DNA from: a virus
Length of the DNA: 64,000 nt
Direction: 5' to 3' (one strand)
Virus record (IMG/VR): IMGVR_UViG_3300045741_000623
Coordinates: 1 to 64,000 of that record
Shown: piece after piece, positions 54 through 15,800 of the stretch
Position numbering within the stretch: position 1 is the first letter of the stretch
Layout of the letters: each line of letters opens with the position of its first letter
The notes under the pieces: generated by a model
The model's input: the letters and a program-made list of their open reading frames with translations, nothing else
What the model was told of the DNA's origin: nothing
The model's database searches: none
Position numbers and translations under genes: made by a program

Positions 54-335
54 TTGCAAGTGTTCCAATACGACCGTCGCCCGCCAAAACCGGCCAAGGA
101 CGAAAGTGTTGCGGTCGCTAAATCAATTTCCGGCGAGGCTGCTGGTGTTGGTCTCGTTGGTACTCGCGGGACAGGCGCAGACGCCGGGACGCTTGCGCCT
201 GTTCCCGCACCCCAGCCGGAACCGACCAGCGAGTTTGTTCCAGCGACCGCCAAGAAATCGTTCAAGATGCCCGTGCTGAAGAAAACTGAATCGCGGTCGC
301 TTTCCGGTGGAACGCCAATCACCGACGAGGAATAA
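54..335 (+). CDS. hypothetical protein (start uncertain)
   Basis: TTG-initiated 93-aa ORF. The same frame has no stop back to nt 3, so the gene could begin upstream of the window. Its TAA overlaps the next ATG by 1 nt (TAATG). Pro/Ala/Gly-rich, no motif recognised. Confidence 0.35.
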   Translation: MQVFQYDRRPPKPAKDESVAVAKSISGEAAGVGLVGTRGTGADAGTLAPVPAPQPEPTSEFVPATAKKSFKMPVLKKTESRSLSGGTPITDEE

Positions 336-2377
336 TGGTTACCTTTCTCCAGTTGAAGAATCTGATTCGGTTGCGCGTTTTTCCTGCGGGCGAAGCGCGC
401 AACCTCAGAATCGCGCATGACAAGTCCATCGTTGACGCCTTGATCGACTTGCAACGGTGGGTTCAATGTCTTCAGAACAAGAATTATTTTCTCGCGCCCC
501 ACTGCGCCACCTTCTTCAACTGCGGACTGACTTCGTTCGATTTTCCGCGCGGCATAATCAAGAAACTGTCCGTGGTGTCGAATGTCAAATCCGGCAGCAC
601 AGCAAGCGGCTCAAGCGGGAATGGCTCTTCCAACGGAGGTTCGACCGTTTCACCCGGAACCGTGGTTGCCACCGTCAATGACTCCATCGCAATCTTTGCC
701 GCGCCGAAATCGCTTCAGACGTTGTATGCGGTCGTATCGGACCAAACATTCGAGGTCGCCGTGACGATGGCCGGTCAGAACTGCGGTGGACCAGCTAAAT
801 CACAAAATGTTCGGACTACGATCGACTACACCGACGTCAATGGCGACGCCAAAACAATTCAGGTTGGTCAAGAGTGTCACCTGAACGAATGCAATGTTCA
901 GGGAATTGCGACTATTGCCGTAAAAGGCGGGACAACGATCCATTACACGCTCACACCGACGAACGTCCCGTTTACTGATGGCGGTGTCAATGTTGGGATC
1001 ACAGTCACGGCAGCCAGCAGTAACTCCGCTGTATCAAGCTCAGGCAGCACGACCAGCGCAACCAGCACAACGGCGGCGACCCAGGGCGGCGAATGGTGCG
1101 ACGAGATCGTTTACGATCAAGTCGAACCGTGCGACATTCAGGGGTACCTCTCCGAAAGCCGACGTTGCGGATTCTGCTACGACATCTCGGCGTTCTTCGC
1201 CATACCAAGCGCGTTGTGCGGGAACAAGACGACCATCCCGACACCGACCGACGTAGGTTTGGATCCCAAGCTTCCACCATTGCCGTTGGGTTATCATTAC
1301 CCCCAGGAATCAACCGATTCGAAATATGGTCGCGCCAAAGCAGGCGTGTGGGCGATCGAAGGCGGACGCGTTTACGTGGCTCCGTGGATTCAATCAACGG
1401 AGACTGTCGTGGCGAAATGGCAGGGCATCAAACGCGACTGGCAGGACACCGACGTTGTTGACGATGATCCGGGTTTATTCCGCGCGATCGAAGCCTACTT
1501 GCGCTGGGAACACGCTCGGGATTGGGATTCGGACCTGAACAAGACTCAAATCTACGAGATCGAATATCGCAAGGCGCTGGCGGACTTGATTTACGATTGC
1601 GCGGAGGAAAATCGCGTGCGCAGTTGCGAGCCAAGTTTGGCGCGAGCCACCGCGCCAGCCGATGCCGACCGATTTACGCCAGATGAACCGCAGACCCCGC
1701 CCGTGATCCCGCCTGTGATAATCCCAACCGAATTCTGGAACGACATCGACGCCGTTGCCACGATTACTTGTGCGAGTTTGCAGGAAGCAAGCGCGCCCGA
1801 GCCAACCGGTGCTGGAGTCACGGTAACGGTCAAGGCGCATACCGTGCATTCAACTTCGGTCGAAGCGGCAAATCTGCTGGCCCAGCAGACTGCCGACGCT
1901 CTAGCCCAGGCCCAGATCGCCGGGAAATGCACATTCTATAATCGAGCGGTAACGCGAACTGCCCATTGCCCAAACAACGATGGACCAGATGTGGATGCGA
2001 CCGTGCTTGAAGGTTTGCATTCCTCGACGGATTCTCAAGCGTTGGCCGACAGCATTGCCGCAGCGCAAGCGCAATTGGACGCGAACGCCCTCCTGCAATG
2101 CGGCGGGGTTGACGCGCACCTCTATTGGAACGCCTATTATGACAACTCAGCGGTTATCCAGTGTACGAGTGGCCACGTTGCTTGTCAGTACGTCCTCACG
2201 TTCTTCATGCCGGCGCACAAGATTTCATCGACAATTCCAGGCGATGCGGATGCCCAGTGCCGGGCCCGAGTTGATCTCAAAGTCCAGCAGGCAAAAGCCA
2301 AAGGTTGCACAAATCCAACTTGGTGCGGGAAAATCTTGCCGAACATCGAAGTGACGCCCATTGGCAACATAAAATGA
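335..2377 (+). CDS. virion-associated structural protein candidate with Ser/Thr-rich linkers and C-terminal Cys-bounded repeat modules
   Basis: 680-aa ORF. Two Ser/Thr/Gly-rich tracts (SGSTASGSSGNGSSNGGSTVS at ~nt 581-665; AASSNSAVSSSGSTTSATSTTAAT at ~nt 1000-1075) flank a beta-rich insert. The C-terminal third (~nt 1730-2377) holds three Cys-bounded modules with an S-x-x-(E/Q)-A...A...A signature. No enzyme motifs. Translationally coupled to the adhesin-like gene downstream. Confidence 0.5.
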   Translation: MVTFLQLKNLIRLRVFPAGEARNLRIAHDKSIVDALIDLQRWVQCLQNKNYFLAPHCATFFNCGLTSFDFPRGIIKKLSVVSNVKSGSTASGSSGNGSSNGGSTVSPGTVVATVNDSIAIFAAPKSLQTLYAVVSDQTFEVAVTMAGQNCGGPAKSQNVRTTIDYTDVNGDAKTIQVGQECHLNECNVQGIATIAVKGGTTIHYTLTPTNVPFTDGGVNVGITVTAASSNSAVSSSGSTTSATSTTAATQGGEWCDEIVYDQVEPCDIQGYLSESRRCGFCYDISAFFAIPSALCGNKTTIPTPTDVGLDPKLPPLPLGYHYPQESTDSKYGRAKAGVWAIEGGRVYVAPWIQSTETVVAKWQGIKRDWQDTDVVDDDPGLFRAIEAYLRWEHARDWDSDLNKTQIYEIEYRKALADLIYDCAEENRVRSCEPSLARATAPADADRFTPDEPQTPPVIPPVIIPTEFWNDIDAVATITCASLQEASAPEPTGAGVTVTVKAHTVHSTSVEAANLLAQQTADALAQAQIAGKCTFYNRAVTRTAHCPNNDGPDVDATVLEGLHSSTDSQALADSIAAAQAQLDANALLQCGGVDAHLYWNAYYDNSAVIQCTSGHVACQYVLTFFMPAHKISSTIPGDADAQCRARVDLKVQQAKAKGCTNPTWCGKILPNIEVTPIGNIK

Positions 2378-4866
2378 CATTGAACCTTGGCGAATTGAAA
2401 ATTGCTCAGTGCGTGAACGTGCCTCCCGGCCCGGATGCCCGTTGCGATGATCCCGCTTTTTCATTGGCGAATCCGGACCTCTGCCCGCAAGAACAACGGT
2501 TCATTATCAAACCTGGCATCGCAATCGTATGTTCACTCGGCAGCGTTGCTTTCTCGGCGTTCATTGTGGAAAACGGAGTTGAACGGGACGTGACAACCGA
2601 CACCGCCTTTTCCACTTCGGACCCGTCAATCCTTGTCATCACCGCAAACACCGGATTGGCAACCGGCATGACCCCCGGGGAAGCGGTTGTCACGGCCAAG
2701 TATCAGGATGTAACTGCGCAATCACCGGTCACAGTTCTTGCCGGCTCGAAATGTTGCGACGATGAAACAGTCGCGATCATGGTCATGGTCGATCAAACCC
2801 ATTCCATGAGTCAGACTTTCCCTGATTATTCCACCAAACTTGGCTACGCGAAGACGGCGGCAATTGCTCTGATTGACAGTGTGAACGAGCAGAAAGACAA
2901 GGTGGGTCTGATGCGGTTCACCAAGGACGCCCAGGTAGTGCTCTCCGTGCCCACGGCGGACAAAGGCACGGTCGCCGCGTTGGTGCCCGGGATCGCGCAA
3001 ACCCAAGTCAAAACCGAATTCTACGAGGCGCTTGCGACGGGAATTGCCACCCTTGACCTGACGGATGCTGATCGAAAAGTTCTCGTTCTATTTACCGACG
3101 GCGAGGATATGGCCGCAAGTTACACCACGAAAAATCCTCTCCAATTGGCCAGCGATTTCAAAGCCGCCGGTGGCATCGTGTTTTGTGTCGGCGCCCGGGC
3201 CCATGGTTCGGGATACAACTTTTTGTCGGCGCTCGCAACGGGCGGATTTTTCATCAATGCCCACAAGGATACGGCGGCGCAAACGTTGGGGTACATGATC
3301 GGTTTGAAGGGTTACATCTGCGGCGGCAATTGCGTGGAAGTTGGGGACGTGAACGATTATCGCGGTAACCTGTGCCACAAGAGCCTGAACTATTGGGACA
3401 TTCTCGATCCGCAAAACAAGTTCGGACTGCCCAACAATCCTGGGGCGGGTTTCATCGCCGCCGAGATTTATCCCACCATTGCGGACATTCAGCGTGGATC
3501 ACTCTACGTCACTGAAGGGCTCAAGCCGGGCGTCGATCTTATCGGAAATGGATTCTTCGATTACCTTCCATTGAACGGGTTGTATGTCGATTTACTTTCT
3601 GAATGTCAGGACGGCACGACGCCGCAGCCGATGCTGATGACGAAGGACGCGTTTCAACTCACCCAAGGGACTTGGTATAAGGTCCGGATCAAGGTCGCCG
3701 GCCCGCAGATCATTGCTGATGATGGCAATTATGTGGCGCCAAGTGTTGTCGTCGGGTTGGTCTCGTGCGACTCAGGCGATTACGTGCTGTTGGAGTCGGT
3801 GAAGATTCAGGATTACAAACAGGATTTCACCAACTACACATTCACGTTTCAAGCGCCCGCGACCGAGTTGGTCAAGCTGACCGTTCATCAAGATGCGATT
3901 TGGGTCGGTTCGGAAACGTCGGACAACCAGTTGCACGGAATTTTGCTGAAGGAAGTTGAACTCCGGGAGGTGACCGGCGTTCCCCTTTTCTTCGACAATT
4001 TCAACACGGAGAACCCGACTTACGTCGGCCCCAAGTGCGGTCAAGGAACTGTCTGGACCGTCATCGGGCAATACGATTCTGAAGGGCAAACCTTCTTGGA
4101 CTACGGCTACATGGCTGGCTACGACTGTTACGGCGATGGGTGTCTCGACACGCCGCCGATTGCGCAGTCGCAGGACCCGAAGCCGCTTCCTAACCTCGAA
4201 GCCGGCACTGGTGGAGGCATTTTCTACTCAACGCAAACCGCGTGCGCACCCGCTTGTCCGAAGGATCATGTCAACATTGGCCAGCCGCTCAGTTTTACGA
4301 CTCCAGCCGGAGGCGAAGTGTACGAAACCCGAATTCGCCTCAGCGCGGCTGCCGCTATCAAATTCTGGAAGGTGAAATTCAAGCGTGACTGGTCCGAGGC
4401 TCTTGAATCCAATCCGGTTCCATTGACACTTCAGGGGTCGAATAACGGAACAGTCTGGACTGAGATTGATACGCAACCGCAGGTTACCGGTGGAATTGCC
4501 GAGCTTGAATTGTTTTACGTGCTGGCAGCCGAGACTACCCCGTACACGTATTATCAAGCCAACCTTGGGCCGGGAACTCCGAGTGGAACGGCAAAGGTTT
4601 TAGGGTTGGAAGTTTACGCCGCGCCGCCAGACCCGGTTTGCAAGACTGCCACGGCGGTTGGCGCCACGCCGTCGCAGGCGATTTCCAATGCGCTGCAAGC
4701 TGCGATCAACGCCTCCGTCGCGCAGCAACATTGCCTTCGAGTTTACACCGCCACCGAGGTTTACCAAGCGGACGACGGGACAACGCAATCCGCCGTCGGC
4801 TCCAGCCTCAACAGCGAAGCCGAAGCCCAGGCTATCGCCGCCGCGAAAGCCGCCACCGCCGCTTGA
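2374..4866 (+). CDS. adhesin / tail-fibre-like protein with Big_2-like Ig, von Willebrand factor A and discoidin-like regions
   Basis: The ORF track starts at 2305, but the in-frame ATG at 2374 forms an ATGA overlap with the upstream stop. Big_2-like segment: VTTDTAFSTSDPSILVITANTGLATGMTPGEAVVTAKY. vWA-like region with a MIDAS-type DxTxS: VMVDQTHSMS ... VGLMRFTKDAQVV ... LVLFTDGEDMA. C-terminal galactose-binding/discoidin-like stretch: FWKVKFKRDW...LTLQGSNNGTVWTEID. Confidence 0.6.
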   Translation: MTLNLGELKIAQCVNVPPGPDARCDDPAFSLANPDLCPQEQRFIIKPGIAIVCSLGSVAFSAFIVENGVERDVTTDTAFSTSDPSILVITANTGLATGMTPGEAVVTAKYQDVTAQSPVTVLAGSKCCDDETVAIMVMVDQTHSMSQTFPDYSTKLGYAKTAAIALIDSVNEQKDKVGLMRFTKDAQVVLSVPTADKGTVAALVPGIAQTQVKTEFYEALATGIATLDLTDADRKVLVLFTDGEDMAASYTTKNPLQLASDFKAAGGIVFCVGARAHGSGYNFLSALATGGFFINAHKDTAAQTLGYMIGLKGYICGGNCVEVGDVNDYRGNLCHKSLNYWDILDPQNKFGLPNNPGAGFIAAEIYPTIADIQRGSLYVTEGLKPGVDLIGNGFFDYLPLNGLYVDLLSECQDGTTPQPMLMTKDAFQLTQGTWYKVRIKVAGPQIIADDGNYVAPSVVVGLVSCDSGDYVLLESVKIQDYKQDFTNYTFTFQAPATELVKLTVHQDAIWVGSETSDNQLHGILLKEVELREVTGVPLFFDNFNTENPTYVGPKCGQGTVWTVIGQYDSEGQTFLDYGYMAGYDCYGDGCLDTPPIAQSQDPKPLPNLEAGTGGGIFYSTQTACAPACPKDHVNIGQPLSFTTPAGGEVYETRIRLSAAAAIKFWKVKFKRDWSEALESNPVPLTLQGSNNGTVWTEIDTQPQVTGGIAELELFYVLAAETTPYTYYQANLGPGTPSGTAKVLGLEVYAAPPDPVCKTATAVGATPSQAISNALQAAINASVAQQHCLRVYTATEVYQADDGTTQSAVGSSLNSEAEAQAIAAAKAATAA

Positions 4867-4930: not shown

Positions 4931-5173
4931 ATGAAAGTTCAATCGCTGCCGCCAGAGGTGCCGCCGGAGAATGTGCCAGTGTTGCTTGATCCCTGCCCGT
5001 TTTGCGGAAAAGCGCCGAGGCTCTTGACGAGGCGGCGAAATGTTTTCGCGCTACTGGCTGGCTTCCCAGCCACAATCTACAAGGTCCATTGCGACCATTG
5101 CGAAGCAAGGTGTCCTGGCCCGTGGCGAACGTCGAAGGCGTTTGAAATCTCAACTTGGAATCATCGCGCATGA
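4931..5173 (+). CDS. Lar-family restriction alleviation protein-like zinc-ribbon protein
   Basis: 80 aa. CPFCG ... HCDHC zinc ribbon and a C-terminal ISTWNHRA. This CPFCG / V-x-C-x-x-C / WN-x-R-A pattern is what I associate with Lar-family proteins. The upstream part of the 4658 ORF is Pro/Arg-rich out-of-frame junk. ATGA overlap with the next gene. Confidence 0.55.
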   Translation: MKVQSLPPEVPPENVPVLLDPCPFCGKAPRLLTRRRNVFALLAGFPATIYKVHCDHCEARCPGPWRTSKAFEISTWNHRA

Positions 5174-7476
5174 CGATTACCTGCATGACCCTGACTTACG
5201 GCAGGGTTGAACGTCTGAACGAATGTCTCGAATCCTTTTTGCGGCAGGATTACGCCGACAAACGAATGGTGATTTTGAACACTTGCCCCCAGCAAGTTTT
5301 GCTTGGCCAATTTCCAAACGTGGAAATTTACAATCTGGCGGAACGCCCGCCCAATTTGGGTGCTGCCCGCAACTTGGCGGTTGACCGTTGCCCCGAAGGT
5401 TTGATTTGCACACTGGATGACGACGATCTTGCCTTGCCACATTACCTGAGCGTTTACGCGCGCGAACTGGTCGACCACCCAAAAGCTGAATGGGTATGGA
5501 TCGACAAGATGTTTTACGCCGAGAAGTGGCAAATCAAAAAATTGTCTGCTGGCGCGATGAACACGTTTGCGTTTACCAAGGAAGCATGGAGAAAAATCGG
5601 CGGCTACAATCCGCTCAATGTCGGTGAAGATCGAGATTTCGTTGGGCGAATGTGCGCCGCCAGTCCGGGGCGATACGTGAAAATTCTCCCCGAAGATGCG
5701 GGCTATATTTACTGTTGGGCGAACAACGTCTATCACGTCTCCGGACTTGGTGATCAAGGCGAAAAAAGTGCGTGGGAACGCGCCCGTAGGGATTTGCAGC
5801 AGCGTTTCCAGCGGCGGCAAGAGCTCGTGGGTCGGATTGAGTTGAATCCGGGCTGGAGACAGGACTATGCGAAGCAAGCAGCATCATTCGTCGCGCGCAC
5901 GCGGCCACCTAGCACGCCGGAAACAAAACCAGTCGCCGGCAATAAGCTCTGCATCGTCTTACTCGGAAGATACGGCGACATCATCAACATCCTGCCGGTC
6001 GCAAAGTTGATCTCTGAACGTCACGGGAAACCTTATTTCATCGTGAGTCGGCAGTTCGCCGATGTCCTCGACGGAGTCAGCTACGTTAATCCTGTCCCGG
6101 TGGACCTGAATTTCGACGCCATCAACGACGCCATCGACTTTGCCCATCGGAATTATGACATCGTTCTCAACGCGCAGATTTACGGCAAGAATTTCAAAAG
6201 CGAACGATCGACACCCGCCTTCAACGTGGAAAGTTGGAGACAGATCGGATTTGGAAGCCGGTTCTCGGATTTTACATTGTCCCCAGTATTTGACCGACGT
6301 GACCGAGACCAGGAGCAATCCATTTGCTCGAAGCTCGGCGACAAACCGTTGCTGTTGTTCAAGCTGACTGGCGGCATTTCATCGCCGTTCAAGCACGCGC
6401 AGCGGATGATCCAGCAACTCACCGCAAGATTCTCCGGGAGATTTTCACTTGTCGATCTTAGCCGGCTTCGTTGTGACCGGATTTATCATTTGCTCGGCGT
6501 AATGGACAAGGCAGCCGCCCTGCTCACCATTGATACGTCCATTTTACATCTTGCCACCGGCTCGACTGTGCCGGTTGTGGTTCTCACCAACTCCGCACCC
6601 TGGCTTGCGTCGCTCCCGAGATTTTTTTGCGCGAAATTCTCCTACACTGAGGCGGAGAAAAATCCTGAATCGGTTCTTGAAGCCCTGGAGGGCGCAATCC
6701 AAACCGGGCCGCGCCCATTGCTTTTCACCGTGTCATTGCTACCACCGAAGAGGAATTTGTTTCACGCGGTAGAACGCCATTTCACGCTGAACGACAAACG
6801 CAGGCAGACCGCCACTGTATCATGGGAACAACTCTACACCCAAGGCGTTTTTCCATGCCATTATTTCAAATACGCTCGCACGGCGAAGGCAATTTGCGAT
6901 CCTCGCGAGCTACCCTATCTGAAGGACGTTTTGAAGAACGCAATGAATCAAGCGAGCGACGCCGACATTATTATGTTTACGAACGACGACAACGTTCTCC
7001 ATCCGAATTTGCCGGGTTATCTGCGCTATCACGTTTCGGTTCATGGCCCTTGTTCCGCTCGGAGACGGGAACTGCGCGAGCCGATTCCGGACCTTTCGCA
7101 ACCTCCATCTGTGCTTGCAACGAAGGGTGTTGACCACGCTGGGCGCGATCTTTTCGCTTTCACGAAGCAGTGGTTGGTTGAAAAGTGGGACGAAATTCCG
7201 GACTTCATTCTTGGGGCATCGGATTGGGATTGGTGCATTGCCGCCATGATCCGGGTGCATCACGGCATCACGACGACGCGCAAGAACATCGAGCAAGCGA
7301 TTTTGCCGGCGGAAATACCCGATGGCTACGTGCTTCATCAATTCCACCCTCCGAGATGGATGGCCCCACACAACAATTTAGTCGCTGCCAGCCAAAGACA
7401 TAATCGGCGACTATTTAGCGAATGGGCGGCGGTAAACCTTCCGACGCTCGCCTTTGACAAGGACAACAGAATATGA
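5170..7476 (+). CDS. three-domain glycosyltransferase (GT2-like + GT9 heptosyltransferase-like + GT-A-like)
   Basis: In-frame ATG at 5170 gives an ATGA overlap. N-terminal GT-A/GT2-like region: MTLTYGRVERLNECLESFLRQDY ... CTLDDDD. Central GT9-like region: KLCIVLLGRYGDIINILPVAKLI ... LLTIDTSILHLATGSTVPVVVL. C-terminal GT-A-like region with DxD: DADIIMFTNDDNVLHP. Confidence 0.6.
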   Translation: MTITCMTLTYGRVERLNECLESFLRQDYADKRMVILNTCPQQVLLGQFPNVEIYNLAERPPNLGAARNLAVDRCPEGLICTLDDDDLALPHYLSVYARELVDHPKAEWVWIDKMFYAEKWQIKKLSAGAMNTFAFTKEAWRKIGGYNPLNVGEDRDFVGRMCAASPGRYVKILPEDAGYIYCWANNVYHVSGLGDQGEKSAWERARRDLQQRFQRRQELVGRIELNPGWRQDYAKQAASFVARTRPPSTPETKPVAGNKLCIVLLGRYGDIINILPVAKLISERHGKPYFIVSRQFADVLDGVSYVNPVPVDLNFDAINDAIDFAHRNYDIVLNAQIYGKNFKSERSTPAFNVESWRQIGFGSRFSDFTLSPVFDRRDRDQEQSICSKLGDKPLLLFKLTGGISSPFKHAQRMIQQLTARFSGRFSLVDLSRLRCDRIYHLLGVMDKAAALLTIDTSILHLATGSTVPVVVLTNSAPWLASLPRFFCAKFSYTEAEKNPESVLEALEGAIQTGPRPLLFTVSLLPPKRNLFHAVERHFTLNDKRRQTATVSWEQLYTQGVFPCHYFKYARTAKAICDPRELPYLKDVLKNAMNQASDADIIMFTNDDNVLHPNLPGYLRYHVSVHGPCSARRRELREPIPDLSQPPSVLATKGVDHAGRDLFAFTKQWLVEKWDEIPDFILGASDWDWCIAAMIRVHHGITTTRKNIEQAILPAEIPDGYVLHQFHPPRWMAPHNNLVAASQRHNRRLFSEWAAVNLPTLAFDKDNRI

Positions 7477-8036
7477 ACAGCAAGCTTATCGACGAAGTTA
7501 CAAACTTGGCCGGCTTTCTCCGGGCGACGACGATCCGCGCCGCCGCCACGTTCATCCTCGAAAACAACCTGCGAAACATTGTCGAGACGGGCTGCTATCG
7601 GGGCAACCCGGCAGACGGTAATTCAACGCTGATCTTCGCTATGCTCGTGAAGGAACTCAGTGGACAATTTAACAGTTACGATGTTTGCCCCAGTAATTGT
7701 GATAAGGCGATGGAGATGCTAAGCGCCAATGATCTCCCCGGATTTGTCACGCTACGTGACTCCGTGTTGGCTCTTGGCGAGCTAAACTCTGCCAGAGTTG
7801 ATTTCGTGTACCTCGATTCTTACGATCACGACCCGGGCAATCCGGGTCCTTGCCAACGGCACGAACTGGCTGAGATTGGAGCGGTTTATCACGCGCTGCG
7901 GACTCCGTGCGGCATATTACTTGACGACTGTATCCCTGAAACGGGCGGGAAAACCTTGTTGGGCGCGAAGTTTTTGGAAGATCGCGGTTGGAAACTGATC
8001 GCGCAGGGTTATCAACTTTTGTACGTGAGAACGTGA
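7473..8036 (+). CDS. class I SAM-dependent methyltransferase-like protein
   Basis: 187 aa. Motif I-like IVETGCYRGNPADGNSTLIFA and an acidic strand VDFVYLDSYDHD, typical of small O-methyltransferase-type Rossmann folds. ATGA overlap with the upstream gene. Confidence 0.55.
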   Translation: MNSKLIDEVTNLAGFLRATTIRAAATFILENNLRNIVETGCYRGNPADGNSTLIFAMLVKELSGQFNSYDVCPSNCDKAMEMLSANDLPGFVTLRDSVLALGELNSARVDFVYLDSYDHDPGNPGPCQRHELAEIGAVYHALRTPCGILLDDCIPETGGKTLLGAKFLEDRGWKLIAQGYQLLYVRT

Positions 8037-8046
8037 GGAAGAAACC

Positions 8047-8817
8047 ATGCTAAACGTTTTCACGATCGTACTGGATGGAATGCCCTTCATTGGTTCGCAT
8101 TTGCCGATCCTAAACACGCTCAAGATTGACTGGCGCTGGGTGATTGCCGAAGGCGCAGCGATGAACGTCAGGGACACGGGTTGGTGTCGGGAACAGACAC
8201 CAAGGTTAAGCACCGACGGCACGACAAGCTTTCTGAAGGGAATCCGGAGTCATCCCAGGATAACGGTCCTGCAAGCGAACCGTTGGGACGGCAAGGTGGA
8301 AATGGTCAACGCATGCCTTGCCGCGTTTAATAAGCCCGGTGTCCTGCTGCAAATGGATTCAGACGAAATGTGGACGGCGGAACAACTCGTTGGCTTGATG
8401 GATTTCTTCCATGCCTACGAAGTCAAAAGCGCACGGTTTCTCTGCCGTTACTTTGTTGGGCCGAATCTGATTATCACGAGTCGAAACACGTATGGCAATC
8501 GTCCGGGTGAATGGCATCGCGCGTGGCGATTTGAGCCGGGAATGGAATTCATATCGCATGAACCACCGCGATTGAACGCTGTCACCGAACCATGCGCAAC
8601 CCGGGAGCAAACGGAAGAATGCGGTTTGGTCTTCGAGCATTACGCCTACGTTTTGCAAAAGCAGGTGGCATACAAGGAAGATTACTACGGCTACCACAAC
8701 GCCGTTCAACACTGGTTGGAATTGCAAGCGGATGGATACTTTCCGGGTTTCAAAGCGAAGCTTGCGGATTACCTTCCCTGGGTAAAAGACGATGCCATTG
8801 TTGAATCCCTGCATTGA
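8047..8817 (+). CDS. GT-A fold glycosyltransferase-like protein
   Basis: 256 aa. N-terminal LNVFTIVLDGMPFI strand and a DxD-like LQMDSDEMW. It sits inside a glycosyltransferase block. The assignment is weak. Confidence 0.4.
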   Translation: MLNVFTIVLDGMPFIGSHLPILNTLKIDWRWVIAEGAAMNVRDTGWCREQTPRLSTDGTTSFLKGIRSHPRITVLQANRWDGKVEMVNACLAAFNKPGVLLQMDSDEMWTAEQLVGLMDFFHAYEVKSARFLCRYFVGPNLIITSRNTYGNRPGEWHRAWRFEPGMEFISHEPPRLNAVTEPCATREQTEECGLVFEHYAYVLQKQVAYKEDYYGYHNAVQHWLELQADGYFPGFKAKLADYLPWVKDDAIVESLH

Positions 8818-8818
8818 A

Positions 8819-9064
8819 ATGGACAGCACAATTATCCCCGAGTCCGATCGGAAGCTTGTCGCTCACGCGGTAGAACGGTTGCTGGAACATTTCGACAGCG
8901 TCCGGATATTTGTAACCCGGCACGATGGCGACAAGGACACAACCGTTGGTTATAGTCGCGGTGGCGGGAATTTTTACGCTCAGCGCGGACAAATAACCGA
9001 ATGGACCAATCAGCAACAACAAATTGAGTCCTCTCCGCAAGTAGACGAGAACGAAGACGAATGA
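8819..9064 (+). CDS. hypothetical protein
   Basis: 81 aa from the ATG at 8819, 1 nt after the upstream TGA. The ORF-track start at 8792 would overlap 26 nt. ATGA overlap with the downstream gene. No motif recognised. Confidence 0.45.
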   Translation: MDSTIIPESDRKLVAHAVERLLEHFDSVRIFVTRHDGDKDTTVGYSRGGGNFYAQRGQITEWTNQQQQIESSPQVDENEDE

Positions 9065-9999
9065 GCGCGCCAACACTTTCGGTAATTATTGCCACGCACA
9101 ACGATCACGTTGAATTGGCCAACACCGTTGCGAGTATTCGCGCCACTTCGGACGCCGACCGCGTTGAAGTTGTCGTGGTGGACGATTCTTCGTCTATTCC
9201 AGTGGCGCCAATTGAACGAGCCAAGCTTCGCCGGAACAGTCGAAGAATCGGTTGCGGCCCTTCACGATTCGTGGGGGCCACGATGGCAGATGGCGAGTAT
9301 TTCCTGATCTGCGACAGTCACATGCGTTTTGGTGATAACTGGTACCAGAATGCCATGCCATTGTTGCAACCGAAAACCCTGCATTGCGGAACGTGCGTTG
9401 CCTTGGGCAAAGAAATGAATCCGAACGTCGGCTCGCCGTATCACGGCGCAACTTGGAATTTTTGCGGGCCATTTCGAAGCGGAAAGTTGAAGGACGATCC
9501 GCGTTACAACCAAGTGTTTGAATGCGTTTGGGGCGAAAAACCGACAACTGACGAGTCTCCAATCCCTGCCGTCATGGGCGCGTCTTACTTCATCCATCGT
9601 GAATGGTTCTTCGAATTAGACCCGTTGCGGCACTTGAGAATGTGGGGCGGGGATGAACAGGAATTGTCACTCAAAGCCTGGCTGGCCGGCGGAGAAATAC
9701 GGCTGCTGAATACAGTTCGCATTGGCCATCTCTTTCGGGAAGGGAAAGTGTCCTCCAGTTACGTGATGCCATGGCACGTTCTCTACAACAAACTCTTTAT
9801 TGCGCACACCTGTTTACCGCCAGAATTGGCGATGCGGATTCATGCCAAGTTTCAGCGCGAACTGCAATTTAGCATGGCTTTATCAGCGATTCGCAACGAT
9901 TGGCATTTGTTGGAGACGGCGCGGAGTTACAACCTGAAGATTTTCGAGCAGTCTTTTGAGTGGTATTTAGAGGCGTTCGGATTAACTTTCCCGAGGTAG
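9061..9999 (+). CDS. polypeptide N-acetylgalactosaminyltransferase-like (GT27/GT2-type) glycosyltransferase
   Basis: 312 aa. GT-A N-terminus LSVIIATHNDHVELANTVASIRAT...VEVVVVDDSS. DxH metal motif in YFLICDSHMRF. MWGGDEQELSLKAWLAGGEIRLLNTVRIGHLFR aligns by eye with the Gal/GalNAc-T motif WGGEN-E-S-R-W-CGG......GH-FR of ppGalNAc-transferases. Confidence 0.7.
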   Translation: MSAPTLSVIIATHNDHVELANTVASIRATSDADRVEVVVVDDSSSIPVAPIERAKLRRNSRRIGCGPSRFVGATMADGEYFLICDSHMRFGDNWYQNAMPLLQPKTLHCGTCVALGKEMNPNVGSPYHGATWNFCGPFRSGKLKDDPRYNQVFECVWGEKPTTDESPIPAVMGASYFIHREWFFELDPLRHLRMWGGDEQELSLKAWLAGGEIRLLNTVRIGHLFREGKVSSSYVMPWHVLYNKLFIAHTCLPPELAMRIHAKFQRELQFSMALSAIRNDWHLLETARSYNLKIFEQSFEWYLEAFGLTFPR

Positions 10000-10009
10000 A
10001 AAAACGGCT

Positions 10010-11809
10010 ATGGCAAAGACATGGAAGCCAATCGCAATCTCGCCACTGACCGGGATGCTCGACACCCGTTCGAGACCAGCGGACCTTGCCCCGGGCTCAT
10101 TTCGCTACAAGCTCAACGCCGCAATCAATCGGAGCGGTTCGCTTTGCGTCCGAGGTGGGCACGCAGCGTTAAATTTCGGGTTGCGATCGGACTCCCCGCT
10201 GGCGATTCCCAATTGGGACTTTCATCGGAGGGACGTGCCGGTGCGGAACCCCATTACGTTCATTTTCGAAAGCACGTCACCGGCTGGCGCGCGCACCTTA
10301 TTCGTTGGGTCCGACTCTGAACTCTCGCGGCTGAATAACGATACTTCCGAATGGACGCAATTGTCGCCCGGCGGCACCGGGAAACGCTGGCACGCCGCCG
10401 CTTCCGGTGAGTACATCATTTTCACGAATGCCGGGGCGAACGGTGTTCAAAGCGGGGTCCTGTGTCATAAGTTGGGCCAGAACGGATTTAACTCGCCTCA
10501 CGCGATCATCCCGCGTTCCGCCGGCAACTACATCATGGTTGCCAAAGTTGCCATCGAATTCGCCGGGGTAGTGTTGTTGATGAACCTTACGGAAGGACCA
10601 GATAAGGATCATCTGCAAACAGTTTCGTCGAGGATCGCTTGGAGTGATTACAACGTTCCGTATGATTTTGAGAACGGAAAGGCGTCCTCCGTTGCGGGTT
10701 TCCAAGATTTGGATTATGGCGATGACATTCTTGCGGCTGCTGAAATGATGGGGTCCGTTTACATCTTCACCACGCGCTCAATCTGGCGCATGGTGACGAA
10801 CATTACCCAGGACACGATCTTCGCGTTTCAGAAAATTTATTCCGAGCCCAAGAATCAGAGTCGTTGTTTGGCTTACCCGAACACGTTGGTTACGACCGGT
10901 CGCGAATTGTTTTGGATGGGCCGGGACACCATTTGGACCTTTAATCCTTACATCTTGGGCCCGGAATCTCCGGAATGGCTTCTGAAATCGTCCGGCGCAT
11001 TATTCAGCGAGAGCAACGCTGATCGAATGGACAAACGTTGCTGTGACGCGATTTGCGGCGCCTTTCATCCGGTAGCCAATGAAGTGTGGTTTTCCTACCC
11101 TCAAGACCAGGGCAGGGACGTGTCAACCTGCATCAACAATCGTTGTCTGGTGCTCAACACCGAATTCAAAACTGCCGATTACGTGGACACCGGTTACAGC
11201 GCATTCGGAAATTTTCGGCGCACGGCGACCTCAAGCGAACAGTGCAATGCGGATCAAGTATTCATTGGAGGTTCAGCTTCAGATTATTGCCTCAAATCCA
11301 TTGGTGACGTTTTCTACCGGGAAACCGTGAACCTGACTGCCGGCAACGCATCGGCTGACATTCCAGACCTTTTGTACGCAACCAGCAAATCGGGATATTT
11401 CTTTCGGGTCATGGGCGAAATCCCACTTGGGTTGCCATTCGACACGAAGCAGGTTCGGGAGTTGCGCTTGGACGCTACCATAGCGCCAAACACTCTCATC
11501 GAAAACAATCTACTCACCCTTCGTATTGGCAACAGCGTGACGCCTGAAGACCCAGTCGCCAACAATGGCCGGTGCGGCGTTCAATGGCGGCAACAGGAAG
11601 ACCTGCCGTTGATCTGTTCGAATGATGTCACGCTTGAGACCATGGCGAAACTGGGGGAGAACCCGAGCGATCCTTTGGCTTGGACACTTTTCGAATACGG
11701 ACTACACCTTTACTTCGACGTCCGTCTCACTGGCCCAAACGGAATCGCCGCGCCGACGGATCACGACGTCGCTTTTAGCGCTTTCCGATTCGATTCGTTG
11801 CTCGTTTGA
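10010..11809 (+). CDS. hypothetical protein (possibly virion-associated, beta-rich)
   Basis: 599-aa ORF, last gene of the + strand block. Beta-strand-rich sequence with repeated aromatic-turn segments (SVYIFTTRSIWRM, EVWFSYPQD). No enzymatic motif. Function not assignable by eye. Confidence 0.4.
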   Translation: MAKTWKPIAISPLTGMLDTRSRPADLAPGSFRYKLNAAINRSGSLCVRGGHAALNFGLRSDSPLAIPNWDFHRRDVPVRNPITFIFESTSPAGARTLFVGSDSELSRLNNDTSEWTQLSPGGTGKRWHAAASGEYIIFTNAGANGVQSGVLCHKLGQNGFNSPHAIIPRSAGNYIMVAKVAIEFAGVVLLMNLTEGPDKDHLQTVSSRIAWSDYNVPYDFENGKASSVAGFQDLDYGDDILAAAEMMGSVYIFTTRSIWRMVTNITQDTIFAFQKIYSEPKNQSRCLAYPNTLVTTGRELFWMGRDTIWTFNPYILGPESPEWLLKSSGALFSESNADRMDKRCCDAICGAFHPVANEVWFSYPQDQGRDVSTCINNRCLVLNTEFKTADYVDTGYSAFGNFRRTATSSEQCNADQVFIGGSASDYCLKSIGDVFYRETVNLTAGNASADIPDLLYATSKSGYFFRVMGEIPLGLPFDTKQVRELRLDATIAPNTLIENNLLTLRIGNSVTPEDPVANNGRCGVQWRQQEDLPLICSNDVTLETMAKLGENPSDPLAWTLFEYGLHLYFDVRLTGPNGIAAPTDHDVAFSAFRFDSLLV

Positions 11810-12891: not shown

Positions 12892-15800
12892 TCAAGCAAG
12901 ACTCAACCGCAGACGCCGCCTTGCTGGACGCCGAATGCCGCGCACCAACCGGGGACCGACTCGCAGCCGGCCAATTTTCGTGCTTCCACGTAAGCTGAGA
13001 CGTCGTCCGCCCCGGAGACCAAGACGACCGCGCACGAGCCCGGGCCGACGCGCGGCGCGAATGCTTCCACCAATGCCGCCGCGTGGCATTCTGATACCGG
13101 CGCCGCCACCTGAAACGAGCCCACCCGCGCCCGCCAAGCCGCGTTCCGAAGCGAGTCCACCTGTCGCAGCCAAACCGCCACTGGCCGCAAGACCGCCACC
13201 TGTGTCGTTGCCCAGGTTCAAACCGCCGCCGGCTACTTTGGCCGGTTTCGTGGGTTCAAGCCCGATTGCCTGCGCCGCAAGCTTGTCCGCGCTGTTTGTC
13301 AGCTTGGAAACCAGTTTCCGGGCGTCTTGCGGGGTATCACTGGCGATCGTGTCGATGTCGTCCAAAACGGATTTCTTGAGCAATGCCCCGCTCTTGAGGG
13401 TGAACTGGGCAAATTGGTCATCGGTCAATGTCCCGTATTTTTCTTCAAGTGTGGCCCGGCGCAACACCGGCGGGGCGGCAGATTGCGCAAGAAGCGTCTG
13501 ATACAACTTTCGGTTCTCGGAATTGTCGGCAACCTGAAACGCGATCGGCACGCCCGTGTCCGCAATCTTTCCGTACCAAGTTTGATTGCCGAGTTTATCT
13601 CCAAACCGGTTCACAGCCGGACGTTGCATGAACGCCAACACCGGGAAACTCGCCAGCATCGCCGCTTGCATGCTGGAGGTGTCCACTTTGCCCATGGTAA
13701 TGTCCCGCATGCTACGTTGAAGACCGAGAAACGGCATGGTGGCGGAAGCAGTCACGCCGGCTATCCTTTGAGCAAGGGCCGTTTCCGAGCCGCCTTGGCT
13801 TCCGAACGCTTGACCCCAACTTGTCAAATTCTGAATCAACCCACGCTGGCCCATCAAGTTGATGTAGTTGCCCAAGCCGTAAGCCGATGTTTTCTCCCAC
13901 GTCTCCGTAAATGGATTTCCGGTGGATTCCTTTTCTTTCTTGCGCCAATTGTAATCGTCGCGAGCGGAGAGAATCCAAAACAGATGCGACATCGGTTCAC
14001 CCAACCTTGTCAACGGTACCGTGATCGCTTTGCCGTTGTGAAACATGACGAGCGAATTCGGGCGGAAACCCTGTTTCAACCAAGCATCCTGCAAATTGCG
14101 GTTGGACGGACCCATGCCCGTCACGAAAACGTTGTTCTTGCGGTCGGTGTCATTACTATTGGCGCTCTGCCCCCATAGCGCGAATCCAGTCGCAGTTAAC
14201 ACCGCTTGAACCGCCGTAGCTGCAAGCGCCTGTTTAAGCCGATATTTCTCCTGATACTCGTTGGCCAAAGATTGCTTGAACCAACGGGTTTCGCCGTGTC
14301 TCTTCTGGTATTCATGGATGCCCAGTCGGAGCAATCCATACGGACTGTTCCACGCGTAGAATCTTGCCGTGCGCAGCGGGATCGCCAGATAACCCATGAC
14401 CGCAACTGCGAGCATACGATCCTGTGAAGTGCCACGCCGCATTAGCGACGAGATGCGTAGAACGGTGTGGATAAATGCGTGCGACATTAACCCACCTTCC
14501 TCCGCTTCGAGAACACCCGGCGCCAGCCGTCCCACGCCGGCATACGCATCGTATTCAGCGGCTTTGCGCGCTTCCCGGGCGGCATCAGTTCCTTCCCGCC
14601 CCTTGACACCCCTTTCTTGGATCGCCTGTTTTATTTCCGATTGCAAAAGATCGACCAACAACGCGTCAGCATGAACCATCGCCCGGGTGCTGGAGTAACC
14701 ACGCCTCAGACCGTCCAAGTAAGCGGTTTCCTTGAGACGATGCGAAGCTTCAACCAGATTGCCGACATCGCCCGTGGTTAGACCAGCGGCGCGCATGGCT
14801 TCCCCGCCGTACATGACGAGTTGCGCTTCTCGAATTGACACCGCGCTTGCTTGGTCGAATGCGTTGAGCATCCGCATGAAGAACTGTTGCGAACCGTACA
14901 ACACTTTGATTACTCCCTTCGCGCGCCGCGCGGGCTCGCCACTGTTCAAATCGGTGCGTCCAGACTCGTACATGCGGCGCAACTCATTGCTGGCTGGCTC
15001 GAATTCGTTGTTGATGAACGTGTAAGCATCCGTCGTCACGGAATACTTAAACTCGTGCATGAAACTTTTGAACGCCGTCACCACTGGACGCCATGTTTCA
15101 TAGATTCGATGTGGAGCGGCAACGGTCATCAACGCGCGGTCCAGCGCCATCCACAGGGCTGGGCCCAAATAATTGATCGTGAAGGTGCGAATCCCCGTCA
15201 GGTTCGTTGCGATGAAATTCGAAGCGATGGAGTGAACCAGCGAAGGAGGCAAGCGCATGTGGAGGTAAATTCCCATCATGCGCTCGGTAATTTCTTTCCG
15301 CTCGATCAAGGTCAATTCGCCTTTCTGGTCCGACAATTCCATGTCCCACTCGGCAAGTTTCTTCCATTCCTCGGACGTCGGCAGCCGCCAGCCGGCTTTG
15401 CGTGCATAAGCCTCCGTCCAGGGTTTGTTCGGATCAGTCAATCCAACCCGGAACGCTTTGATGAATTCGTCCACGGATTCGGCGCCTGAAATTCTGGAGG
15501 TCAATCGCTTGGCCAACTCATCGGCTGCTTTATTCAGCGCGGTATTGAAACCTTCCTCGAAAAGTTGAACGGCTTCGGCAACGCGTTCGCGCCCAACGCC
15601 GTTGCTCAGAAACCATCGGGTTGCGACGTCATCGCGCCACGCTTTGGTTTGTTGCAGCAGAAACGGTGCGGCGATGATTTCGTCCATCAATTCGGCAATT
15701 CGTCCCGACTTTGCGGCGCGTTCCATGACGCGCACATTCGCGCTGGCGAACTGAGCCGAACGATCGTTGCCGACCGCTTGAGCTAATTCCTGGCGCACGA

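What the first reader, a model, noticed from the sequence alone, without database searches (positions are those of the whole stretch)
9061..9999. Phage gene with hallmarks of mucin-type polypeptide GalNAc-transferases (DxH + Gal/GalNAc-T motif)
The protein has three signatures that define the catalytic unit of GT27 ppGalNAc-transferases, the enzymes that start protein O-glycosylation on Ser/Thr. First, a GT-A N-terminus (VIIATHNDH...VVVVDDSS). Second, a DxH metal site (ICDSHMRF). Third, MWGGDEQELSLKAWLAGGEIRLLNTVRIGHLFR, which aligns residue-for-residue by eye with the animal Gal/GalNAc-T motif (WGGEN-E-S-R-W-CGG-LE.....VGHVFR). Plausible acceptor tracts exist in the same operon: the Ser/Thr-rich linkers at ~581-665 and ~1000-1075 of the 335-2377 protein. 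This points to phage-encoded O-glycosylation of virion proteins rather than LPS or DNA modification.
Basis: partly seen in the sequence, partly recalled or inferred. Interest (0 to 1): 0.7.

Follow-up and report, generated by a model that had tools for sequence, protein, structure and literature searches.

The report
Phage enzyme resembling animal mucin glycosyltransferases
An uncultured tailed phage carries, among its tail genes, a small soluble sugar-transferring enzyme whose closest solved relatives are the animal and Toxoplasma enzymes that start mucin-type protein O-glycosylation, so the phage may sugar-coat its own particle proteins, although no target was demonstrated.

Summary
ORF 9061-9999 (+, 312 aa) has all three quoted motifs. 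Its best sequence and fold matches among solved structures are all GT27 polypeptide GalNAc-transferases: phmmer E 4e-16 over the whole catalytic domain, family profile E 3.5e-33, and a Foldseek top 50 that is entirely GT27. The best non-GT27 structure scores 2e-12 and matches only the first ~100 residues. The Mn2+ triad (D85, H87, H223) and the donor-site residues are nearly invariant across 202 related domains. The protein lacks the lectin domain and membrane anchor of canonical GT27. It also reads WGGDE where GT27 reads WGGEN. It is therefore a lectin-less prokaryotic/viral GT27-like enzyme, not a canonical ppGalNAc-T. The gene is the last one in an accessory cassette of three glycosyltransferases and a methyltransferase. 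In this uncultured podovirus-like lineage the cassette is inserted between a VWA protein gene and the tail-hub gene. Related phages lack the cassette. Virion-protein O-glycosylation is the best reading (~0.45) but rests on inference. Statistical links between the enzyme and poly-Thr proteins are weak.

The parts
9061..9999 (+). GT27-like glycosyltransferase (312 aa, soluble, no lectin domain). DD at nt 9181-9186 (D41, D42); DSH at nt 9313-9321 (D85, H87); WGGDE at nt 9643-9657; third metal ligand H223 at nt 9727-9729.
5170..7476 (+). First gene of the glycosylation cassette: a 768-aa multidomain glycosyltransferase with an N-terminal GT2 domain. Orthologues also carry GT9-like domains.
   Evidence: Pfam PF00535 E 2.7e-11; gene call; orthologue domains; synteny.
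7473..8036 (+). Class I SAM methyltransferase-like protein (187 aa). Its start overlaps the upstream gene by 4 nt. A relative of the enzyme (P0038) has a domain of this kind fused to its C-terminus.
   Evidence: PF13578 E 3e-3 and phrog_24975 E 1e-25; fusion seen; gene gaps.
8047..8817 (+). 256-aa protein with weak GT-A similarity; a possible third glycosyltransferase. Conserved in several related cassettes.
   Evidence: PF00535 E 1.6e-3, below the curated cut-off; orthologues in L016, L022, L048, L054, L059; no detectable relation to the GT27-like family.
8792..9064 (+). 90-aa protein of unknown function. Its stop codon overlaps the ATG of the GT27-like gene (ATGA).
335..2377 (+). 680-aa structural-module protein with C-terminal DUF5977 repeats. 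An inserted CBM-like beta-sandwich (aa 110-226) is flanked by two disordered Ser/Thr/Gly-rich linkers (aa 86-103 and 230-252).
2374..4866 (+). VWA-domain protein (830 aa). This conserved structural-module gene forms the upstream border of the cassette insertion site.
10010..11809 (+). 599-aa virion protein homologous to the podovirus tail hub (nozzle). It starts 10 nt after the GT27-like gene and forms the downstream border of the cassette. It is the conserved neighbour in ~25 related phage contigs.
   Evidence: phrog_3287 E 3.5e-18; profile hit to PDB 9nwi_Y E 3e-5, identified as Pa223 tail hub gp59 by its length and copy number; synteny.

Best explanation
The gene encodes a soluble, cytoplasmic, Mn2+-dependent GT-A glycosyltransferase with the active-site architecture of GT27 polypeptide GalNAc-transferases. 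This comprises the DxH plus distal His metal triad, the GT27-type RxGxxxSR donor loop, the Gal/GalNAc-T motif and a flexible loop after GHxFR. It has none of the eukaryotic accessories (membrane anchor, stem, lectin domain). It is made late in infection together with the tail proteins. It most likely transfers the first sugar, probably a HexNAc from a host UDP-sugar, onto Ser/Thr of one or more virion proteins as they fold in the cytoplasm. The other cassette enzymes (a 768-aa multidomain GT, a 256-aa GT-like protein and a methyltransferase) would then extend and methylate the glycan. In this phage the best candidate sites are the two disordered Ser/Thr-rich linkers that hold a CBM-like domain on the DUF5977 protein. 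Shown here: the homology, the fold, the conservation of catalytic residues, the phage and tail-module context, and the accessory nature of the cassette. Inferred: the donor sugar, the anomeric outcome, the protein acceptor and the biological role (shielding or stabilising exposed linkers).
For: All 16 best PDB sequence hits are GT27 and span the whole catalytic domain. 8uhv, deposited as 'Glycosyl transferase', is T. gondii GalNAc-T3. The next-best structures (K4CP chondroitin synthase and others, E 2e-12 or weaker) match only the first ~100 residues. The AF2 model has pLDDT 95.8, and its Foldseek top 50 are all GT27. Across 202 domains, D42, D85, H87, E199, H223, R62, R69 and G173 are almost invariant. 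Five of 37 family members also hit PF02709 and four hit PF11397, the GT60 polypeptide GlcNAc-transferase model. The cassette genes overlap or lie within 10 nt of each other on the strand of the structural genes, and none has a convincing TM segment. The cassette lies between the VWA gene and the tail-hub gene, and relatives have those two genes adjacent with no cassette. No priming phosphoglycosyltransferase, flippase or polymerase was seen in the cassette. No hydroxymethylase-type gene was seen among the ORFs scanned. The Ser/Thr tracts are predicted disordered and flank a surface-type beta-sandwich. In other lineages, mucin-like poly-Thr proteins sit 21-1000 nt from the enzyme gene (L032, L034, L041, L005). 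Four of ten poly-Thr genes lie within 1.1 kb of the enzyme gene, p~0.018. Phage-encoded glycosylation of capsid and tail proteins is already established in mycobacteriophages (Freeman et al. 2023, as cited in PMC12619734).
Against: No acceptor was demonstrated. Ser/Thr tracts in the DUF5977 protein occur in only 6 of 64 orthologues and are missing from other enzyme-bearing phages (P0190/P0192, P0225, P0246). Poly-Thr genes occur in 9 of 30 enzyme-positive loci against 1 of 15 enzyme-negative loci, Fisher p = 0.13. None of 120 random poly-Thr-encoding IMG/VR loci carries a member of this family. All characterised GT27 enzymes are eukaryotic and luminal, and no prokaryotic member has a known substrate. 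The family has an invariant acidic residue (E199) where GT27 has Asn335. From my own recollection, this is the position of the catalytic base Asp318 in inverting beta4GalT1, so chemistry and linkage may differ from GT27.
Confidence: 0.45

Rival explanations
1. The cassette, including this enzyme, builds or modifies a non-protein glycan. The target could be a host envelope polysaccharide or a lipid-linked intermediate (LPS, capsule, teichoic acid), changed during infection to mask receptors, block superinfection or aid release.
For: Soluble GT-A enzymes commonly act on lipid-linked acceptors at the membrane. JGI named the protein 'glycosyltransferase involved in cell wall biosynthesis'. Pfam and NCBIfam give only generic GT2-type N-terminal matches. 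The orthologous multidomain GT carries GT9 (heptosyltransferase-like) domains typical of LPS core synthesis. The link to Ser/Thr tracts is statistically weak.
Against: Beyond residue ~110 the only solved relatives are polypeptide-modifying GT27 enzymes. The cassette sits inside the late tail-gene operon of an apparently lytic phage lineage, which was essentially absent from 185,579 genomes (one 2.3-kb MAG contig). It is not next to an integrase or attachment site as in seroconverting prophages. No TM segments, flippase or polymerase were found.
Confidence: 0.25
2. The enzyme glycosylates host proteins or peptides rather than virion proteins, as a takeover or defence-evasion function. Bacterial relatives may similarly modify peptides.
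For: The GT27 and GT60 relatives are all polypeptide-modifying. Bacterial relatives are fused to LanC-like domains and lie beside radical-SAM enzymes and a second GT, a context that could indicate peptide modification.
Against: The gene is co-oriented and translationally packed with late structural genes rather than early genes. No obvious precursor peptide was found in the LanC-fusion loci. No hit to any defence or anti-defence family was sought or found.
Confidence: 0.1
3. The enzyme glycosylates phage DNA (hypermodified bases) to evade restriction.
For: Phage glycosyltransferases are classically DNA-modifying, and the literature lists this as the default role.
Against: No base-hydroxymethylase or thymidylate-synthase-like gene was found among the ORFs scanned. 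The only DNA-modification gene seen is a Dam-type methylase. The gene lies in the tail module, not the replication module. There is no similarity to any cultured-phage protein, including the known DNA glycosyltransferases in INPHARED.
Confidence: 0.05
4. The GT27 resemblance is superficial and this is an ordinary inverting GT2 enzyme that shares only the GT-A nucleotide-binding half.
For: Pfam assigns only PF00535, residues 7-110. The WGG[DE]E acid pair resembles the ED-type catalytic base motif of inverting GT-A enzymes (from my own recollection).
Against: The alignment to GalNAc-T2 runs through residue 304 and includes an ungapped 32-residue Gal/GalNAc-T motif and the third metal ligand. The profile E-value gap between GT27 and the best GT2 structure is ~20 orders of magnitude, and GT2 matches stop at ~100 residues. 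The Foldseek top 50 are all GT27.
Confidence: 0.05

Closest known systems
GT27 polypeptide GalNAc-transferases (human GalNAc-T2/T10/T4/T12, Drosophila PGANT9, Toxoplasma GalNAc-T3)
   Same: The whole catalytic domain aligns (query 3-304 to T2 135-431). Shared features are the DxH plus distal His Mn2+ triad, the DD uridine-binding pair, the RRxGxxxSRxxGA loop, an ungapped Gal/GalNAc-T motif and the GHxFR entry to the flexible loop. The fold matches with TM 0.70-0.77.
   Different: Only ~20% identical. It has no N-terminal membrane anchor or stem and no C-terminal ricin-type lectin domain. It is cytoplasmic rather than Golgi-luminal. WGGEN is replaced by WGGDE (Glu334 to Asp, Asn335 to invariant Glu). 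It has a family-specific YNK motif. Donor, acceptor and stereochemistry are unknown.
Bacterial lectin-less GT27-like proteins (the candidate GT27 reported in Bacillus firmus GB1 by CAZy annotation; Cytobacillus spongiae WP_233812127.1)
   Same: Single-domain ~290-310-aa soluble proteins with DxH, WGxE[DE] and HLFR motifs, and GT27 as their best PDB matches (Cytobacillus protein E 7e-21). CAZy-based annotation has already listed a Bacillus protein as GT27 (PMC3178493).
   Different: Only 27% identical to the phage protein. They are chromosomal or megaplasmid genes near cotE and a GT7-like gene, not in a virion module. None has been characterised.
Mycobacteriophage virion glycosylation (Che8, Corndog, Myrna; Freeman et al. 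2023)
   Same: Phage-encoded glycosyltransferases modify virion structural proteins, producing glycans on capsid and tail-tube subunits (as summarised in PMC12619734; PMC11256854).
   Different: tblastn of this protein against 50,697 cultured-phage genomes, which should include those phages, found nothing even at E <= 5, so the enzyme family is different. Here the cassette sits within the tail-gene block of a podovirus-like lineage with an unknown host, and glycosylation has not been shown.
GT60 cytoplasmic polypeptide alpha-GlcNAc-transferases (Pfam PF11397; Dictyostelium Gnt1 type)
   Same: Soluble, lectin-less enzymes related to GT27 that act on proteins in the cytoplasm (from my own recollection). 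Four of 37 family members, and the N-terminal domains of tandem-GT relatives, hit PF11397. BFVD structural neighbours include uncultured-phage proteins annotated 'Glycosyltransferase, GlcNAc'.
   Different: The query itself does not reach PF11397 at E <= 1. No GT60 structure was available for comparison.

Membership tests
CAZy GT27 (polypeptide GalNAc-transferases) | Sequence similarity across the whole catalytic domain (GT-A half plus Gal/GalNAc-T half) | tested here: met
   phmmer E 3.9e-16 with query 3-304 against T2 135-431. Profile E 3.5e-33 to 4e-24 for all 16 GT27 PDB sequences, with the next family at 2e-12 and N-terminal only.
CAZy GT27 (polypeptide GalNAc-transferases) | GT27 catalytic-domain fold | tested here: met
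   AF2 pLDDT 95.8. Foldseek top 50 PDB hits are all GT27, E 2e-18 to 3e-15, TMq 0.63-0.77.
CAZy GT27 (polypeptide GalNAc-transferases) | DxH motif plus distal His forming the Mn2+ site | tested here: met
   D85, H87 and H223 align to D224, H226 and H359 of T2. Counts over 202 aligned domains, of which ~190 have a residue at each column: D85 190, H87 183 (8 have D instead), H223 186.
CAZy GT27 (polypeptide GalNAc-transferases) | Gal/GalNAc-T motif WGGENxExSxRxWxCGGxxExxPCSxVGHVFR | tested here: inconclusive
   Ungapped alignment with 13 of 32 residues identical. However, E334 is replaced by D198, N335 by invariant E199, and the Cys residues are absent. The query itself does not reach PF02709, but 5 of 37 relatives do.
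CAZy GT27 (polypeptide GalNAc-transferases) | C-terminal ricin B-type lectin domain | tested here: not met
   The protein ends at residue 312, right after the catalytic-domain helices. No PF00652 hit in any of the 37 members. Fusion partners in relatives are other GTs, a methyltransferase or LanC-like domains.
CAZy GT27 (polypeptide GalNAc-transferases) | Type II membrane topology (N-terminal anchor and stem, luminal enzyme) | tested here: not met
   The GT-A strand starts at residue 6. Maximum 19-residue Kyte-Doolittle hydropathy is 0.81.
CAZy GT27 (polypeptide GalNAc-transferases) | Retaining transfer of GalNAc from UDP-GalNAc to Ser/Thr of polypeptides | not testable with these tools
   Needs an enzyme assay and NMR or MS of the product.
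CAZy GT27 (polypeptide GalNAc-transferases) | Assignment by the CAZy/dbCAN family HMM | not testable with these tools
   No dbCAN library was available. Indirect evidence: CAZy annotation has placed a Bacillus firmus protein in GT27 (PMC3178493).
GT2 (Pfam PF00535; inverting GT-A) | Match to the GT2 profile, and to GT2 structures beyond the nucleotide-binding half | tested here: inconclusive
   PF00535 E 9e-13 covers only residues 7-110. From my own recollection this model also covers that region in GT27 enzymes. All GT2 structures match only profile positions ~4-114.
GT60 (Pfam PF11397, polypeptide GlcNAc-transferases) | Match to PF11397 | tested here: not met
   No hit for the query at E <= 1. 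Four of 37 relatives hit, best E 1.4e-5.
Phage virion glycosylation systems (mycobacteriophage type) | Phage-encoded GT (and methyltransferase) genes expressed with, or acting on, structural proteins | tested here: met
   A cassette of three GT-like genes and one methyltransferase-like gene, packed on the strand of the structural genes between the VWA and tail-hub genes.
Phage virion glycosylation systems (mycobacteriophage type) | Homology to the characterised mycobacteriophage glycosyltransferases | tested here: not met
   tblastn against INPHARED found no match at E <= 5.
Phage virion glycosylation systems (mycobacteriophage type) | Glycans detected on capsid or tail proteins | not testable with these tools
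   The phage is uncultured. Needs glycoproteomics or heterologous co-expression.

The most novel reading that the evidence does not exclude
Lectin-less GT27-like enzymes form a large prokaryotic and viral family, with ~1,200 clusters at 50% identity scoring E < 1e-30. In this reading, they are the cytoplasmic ancestors or sisters of the eukaryotic mucin-type O-glycosylation initiators. Environmental podovirus-like phages would use them, within mobile glycosylation cassettes, to place mucin-type O-glycans on exposed Ser/Thr linkers of tail or appendage proteins. That would be a second, independent origin of glycan-coated phage particles, outside the actinobacteriophages.
Probability: 0.35. Interest if true: 0.8.

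Novelty: new variant of a known kind. Interest (0 to 1): 0.6.

Why it matters
Mucin-type O-glycosylation is regarded as a eukaryotic secretory-pathway process started by GT27 enzymes. A well-conserved, soluble, single-domain version in phages and bacteria offers a minimal model of the GT27 catalytic core. It also gives a handle on where the family came from. If the enzyme acts on virion proteins, phage-particle glycosylation would extend from mycobacteriophages to an unrelated, uncultured podovirus-like lineage. That bears on phage stability, receptor recognition and immune visibility. A small cytoplasmic enzyme that starts O-glycans on Ser/Thr would also be a useful tool for bacterial glycoengineering.

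Tried and rejected
- **Cultured-phage relatives.** tblastn of the protein against INPHARED found nothing at E <= 1e-5 or at E <= 5.
- **Curated prokaryotic families.** NCBIfam gave only sub-threshold N-terminal GT-A matches. PHROGs gave only a generic glycosyltransferase hit, E 2.6e-4.
- **Poly-Thr enrichment near the enzyme.** 9 of 30 enzyme-positive loci against 1 of 15 enzyme-negative loci, Fisher p = 0.13, not significant. For the (ACN)8 pattern, 4 of 30 against 0 of 15.
- **Inverse test.** 120 IMG/VR loci carrying (ACN)8, ~1 Mb in all, contain no member of the family (best 38 bits).
- **Conservation of the proposed acceptor.** Only 6 of 64 DUF5977 orthologues have Ser/Thr tracts, so I rejected it as a general acceptor.
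- **Host identification.** The tail-hub profile found one 2.3-kb MAG contig (uncultured Rhodoferax), which is unreliable. MAG hits to the enzyme lack phage synteny.
- **Fold of the DUF5977 protein.** Only the inserted beta-sandwich found weak CBM-like or jelly-roll matches. The core has no structural neighbour.
- **Relation of the 256-aa GT-like protein to the family.** hhalign found none.
- **Methyltransferase against PDB.** No informative hit.
- **Promoter and terminator scans.** No more sites than in shuffled sequence.
- **Freeman et al. 2023.** The paper is not held in the library, so it is cited only through papers that summarise it.
- **LanC-fusion loci.** No convincing precursor peptide was found.
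Full report
**Observation.** The window has an ORF at 9061..9999 on the + strand encoding 312 aa. Pfam recognises only the N-terminal GT-A half (PF00535, residues 7-110, E 9e-13). NCBIfam gives only sub-threshold N-terminal matches.

**Relation to GT27, by sequence.** A phmmer search of all PDB sequences returns polypeptide GalNAc-transferases as its 16 best hits. 8uhv, deposited as 'Glycosyl transferase', is Toxoplasma GalNAc-T3. The best E-value is 3.9e-16, and the alignment runs from query residue 3 to 304 against residues 135-431 of human GalNAc-T2, which is the whole catalytic domain. In that alignment:
- D41-D42 pair with D175-D176.
- RRIGCGPSRFVGA pairs with RREGLMRSRVRGA.
- D85-S86-H87 pair with D224-S225-H226.
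- MGA pairs with the AGG sugar loop.
- W195-R226 pair without a gap with W331-R362 (13 of 32 identical).
- H223 falls on the third metal ligand, H359.

A profile of 37 family members raises the GT27 scores to E 3.5e-33 through 4e-24. The next-best structures (K4CP chondroitin synthase, heparosan synthase and other GT2 enzymes) score 2e-12 or weaker and match only the first ~100 profile positions.

**Relation to GT27, by fold.** An AlphaFold2 model built on the family alignment is very confident (pLDDT 95.8, pTM 0.93). Its 50 best Foldseek matches in the PDB are all GT27 enzymes (E 2e-18 to 3e-15, TM 0.63-0.77 on the query). Predicted viral structures match less well (best 2e-14).

**How it differs from GT27.** The protein starts directly with the first GT-A strand and ends after the catalytic-domain helices. 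It has no hydrophobic anchor (maximum hydropathy 0.81) and no lectin domain. The motif reads WGGDE where GT27 reads WGGEN. The second acidic residue, E199, is present in 187 of 189 aligned domains. From my own recollection, that position holds the catalytic base Asp318 in inverting beta4GalT1 (WGGED), so the stereochemical outcome cannot be assumed. I therefore treat the protein as a lectin-less, soluble GT27-like enzyme rather than a canonical ppGalNAc-T.

**Size and spread of the family.** The family is not small. A word-indexed search found 41 metagenomic homologues at 25-64% identity. An exhaustive profile search found 1,201 clusters (50% identity) at E < 1e-30. Members include tandem-GT fusions, a methyltransferase fusion and GT-LanC-like fusions. 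Across 202 domains, D42, D85, H87, E199, H223, R62, R69, G173, A174 and Y176, plus a family-specific N243-K244, are nearly invariant. This argues for active enzymes. Bacterial versions exist, for example a 291-aa Cytobacillus spongiae protein whose best PDB hits are also GT27 (E 7e-21). A CAZy-based paper had already listed a Bacillus firmus protein as candidate GT27 (PMC3178493). I found no paper describing a phage-encoded GT27-like enzyme. No cultured phage in INPHARED has a detectable homologue.

**Genomic context.** The window is part of a ~78-kb phage contig. An identical contig from another run supplied the 10 kb upstream of the window (L013). The order of genes there is:
- a large terminase (phrog_2, E 3.5e-17);
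- five unannotated structural-module genes;
- the DUF5977 protein (335-2377);
- a VWA protein (2374-4866);
- a 768-aa GT2-type multidomain enzyme (5170-7476);
- a methyltransferase-like protein (7473-8036);
- a weak GT-like protein (8047-8817);
- a 90-aa ORF (8792-9064);
- the GT27-like gene (9061-9999);
- a 599-aa virion protein (10010-11809; phrog_3287, E 3.5e-18).

A profile of that last protein hits PDB 9nwi chain Y (E 3e-5). The chain's length (513 aa) and copy number (six) identify it as the hexameric tail hub gp59 of Pseudomonas podophage Pa223, despite the deposited name 'Capsid and scaffold protein'. The cassette genes overlap or lie within 10 nt of each other. Elsewhere the window encodes a collagen-like tail fibre, a helicase, a primase, an exonuclease and a Dam methylase. 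It has no tRNAs.

**Comparative genomics.** In about 25 related IMG/VR and metagenome contigs, the GT27-like gene lies within ~3 kb upstream of the tail-hub orthologue, directly abutting it in the window and its closest relatives, and usually comes after one or more other GT genes. Related phages such as L056, L057, L069, L073 and L075 have the VWA gene directly followed by the tail-hub gene, with no cassette. The cassette is thus an accessory, variable insertion at a fixed site in the tail-gene block. One lineage (L017/L049) carries only the GT27-like gene, between the terminase and tail-hub genes.

**Acceptor question.** An AF2 model of that protein (pLDDT 78) predicts both tracts as disordered linkers (aa 86-103 and 230-252). 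They flank an inserted beta-sandwich (aa 110-226) whose only structural neighbours are CBM-like or jelly-roll domains. That is the kind of exposed linker that is O-glycosylated in many systems. However, only 6 of 64 orthologues have such tracts, and orthologues from other enzyme-bearing phages lack them.

Across lineages some arrangements are striking:
- In L032, a 428-aa protein with a ~100-residue poly-Thr run ends 52 nt before the enzyme gene.
- In L034, a 519-aa protein with a 125-residue Thr/Pro/Ser tract ends 21 nt before a GT2-GT27-like fusion.
- In L041, a Thr/Ala/Pro-rich protein lies 1 kb upstream of a GT27-like-methyltransferase-GT2 fusion.
- In the Longimicrobiaceae MAG locus L005, a PKD, poly-Thr and TM protein lies 51 nt from the enzyme gene, convergently.

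Four of ten poly-Thr genes lie within 1.1 kb of the enzyme gene (binomial p~0.018). The broader tests are weak. Poly-Thr genes occur in 9 of 30 enzyme-positive loci against 1 of 15 enzyme-negative loci (Fisher p = 0.13). None of 120 random poly-Thr-encoding viral loci contains a family member. The protein-acceptor idea is therefore plausible and has some independent support, but it is not established.

**Mechanism and rivals.** The best-supported reading (about 0.45) is a late-expressed, cytoplasmic, Mn2+-dependent enzyme that transfers the first sugar onto Ser/Thr of virion, probably tail or appendage, proteins. The other cassette enzymes would extend and methylate the glycan. Supporting points:
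- every solved relative beyond the generic GT-A half modifies polypeptides;
- weak links to GT60 and PF02709;
- the position and tight packing of the gene within the tail operon;
- the absence of membrane segments and of any priming, flippase or polymerase genes;
- the precedent of mycobacteriophage virion glycosylation.

Rivals are modification of a host envelope glycan or lipid-linked intermediate (0.25), host-protein or peptide modification (0.10), DNA glycosylation (0.05), and a merely superficial GT27 resemblance (0.05, largely refuted).

**Novelty and verdict.** Phage-encoded virion glycosylation is known, and GT27-like bacterial sequences have been catalogued. This is therefore not categorically new. 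What is new is a well-defined, conserved, lectin-less GT27-like family embedded in mobile glycosylation cassettes in the tail module of an uncultured podovirus-like lineage. That makes mucin-type-like O-glycosylation of phage particles, and a prokaryotic or viral root of GT27, directly testable. I score interest at 0.6 and class it as a new variant of a known kind.

Noticed in passing
window 12892-22812 (-): A giant 3,306-aa ORF next to the tail-hub gene has internal tyrosine-recombinase-like (Phage_integrase, E 2e-4; phrog_1, E 2e-15) and ParB-like segments. Orthologues of 1,800-3,800 aa sit at the same position in relatives. It may be an internal or ejected virion protein, but its function is unexplained.
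   Followed up: partly
window 10010-11809; PDB 9nwi chain Y: The only PDB sequence relative of the 599-aa virion protein is deposited as 'Capsid and scaffold protein'. Its length (513 aa) and six copies match the Pa223 tail hub gp59 described in the preprint. The PDB molecule name appears to be a carried-over mis-annotation.
   Followed up: partly
L083 4211-6271; L084 8001-9905: Bacterial relatives of the enzyme are fused to a LanC-like domain. In two different contigs they lie beside a radical-SAM(/SPASM) enzyme and a second glycosyltransferase, one of which carries a eukaryote-type 'Branch' (GT14-like) domain. This may be a glycosylated-peptide pathway, but no clear precursor peptide was found.
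   Followed up: partly
L082 (Cytobacillus spongiae NZ_CP089998.1) 8001-9938: A GT27-like gene (WP_233812127.1) lies next to a 'galactosyltransferase-related' gene with a GWGGEDD motif, a few kb from cotE and among coiled-coil hypothetical proteins. This hints at spore-surface glycosylation by a GT27-like/GT7-like enzyme pair.
   Followed up: partly
L034 8744-10920: The GT2 gene ends with the N-terminal third of a GT27-like domain and the next ORF begins at the DSHMRF motif. This looks like a frameshift or sequencing error splitting a GT2-GT27-like fusion.
   Followed up: no
L030 1682-3724: Two tandem 339-aa paralogues have an N-terminal Thr/Ser/Gly/Asp repeat followed by BNR/Asp-box beta-propeller repeats. 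They follow a 555-aa protein with a Thr10 run and CHB_HEX_C/Fn3-associated domains, ~6-8 kb upstream of the GT27-like gene.
   Followed up: partly
window 2374-4866: An 830-aa protein with a von Willebrand factor A domain (PF13519, E 3e-12) is a conserved member of the tail or structural gene block in this lineage. That is an unusual domain for a virion module.
   Followed up: no
window 32852-34564: A collagen-like tail fibre protein (multiple PHROG tail-fibre families, E down to 4e-32) lies far from the main structural block, among replication-type genes.
   Followed up: no
L001-L003 7259-8104: In the related cassette of another phage, a 281-aa gene product is recorded with Pfam PF25187 (Acb3). 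No counterpart is recognised in the window's cassette, which shows that cassette gene content varies.
   Followed up: no
L053 76-1815 (-): The p576 orthologue of a relative with no GT27-like gene within 10 kb still carries a poly-Thr tract. Such tracts therefore do not strictly depend on a nearby copy of the enzyme.
   Followed up: partly
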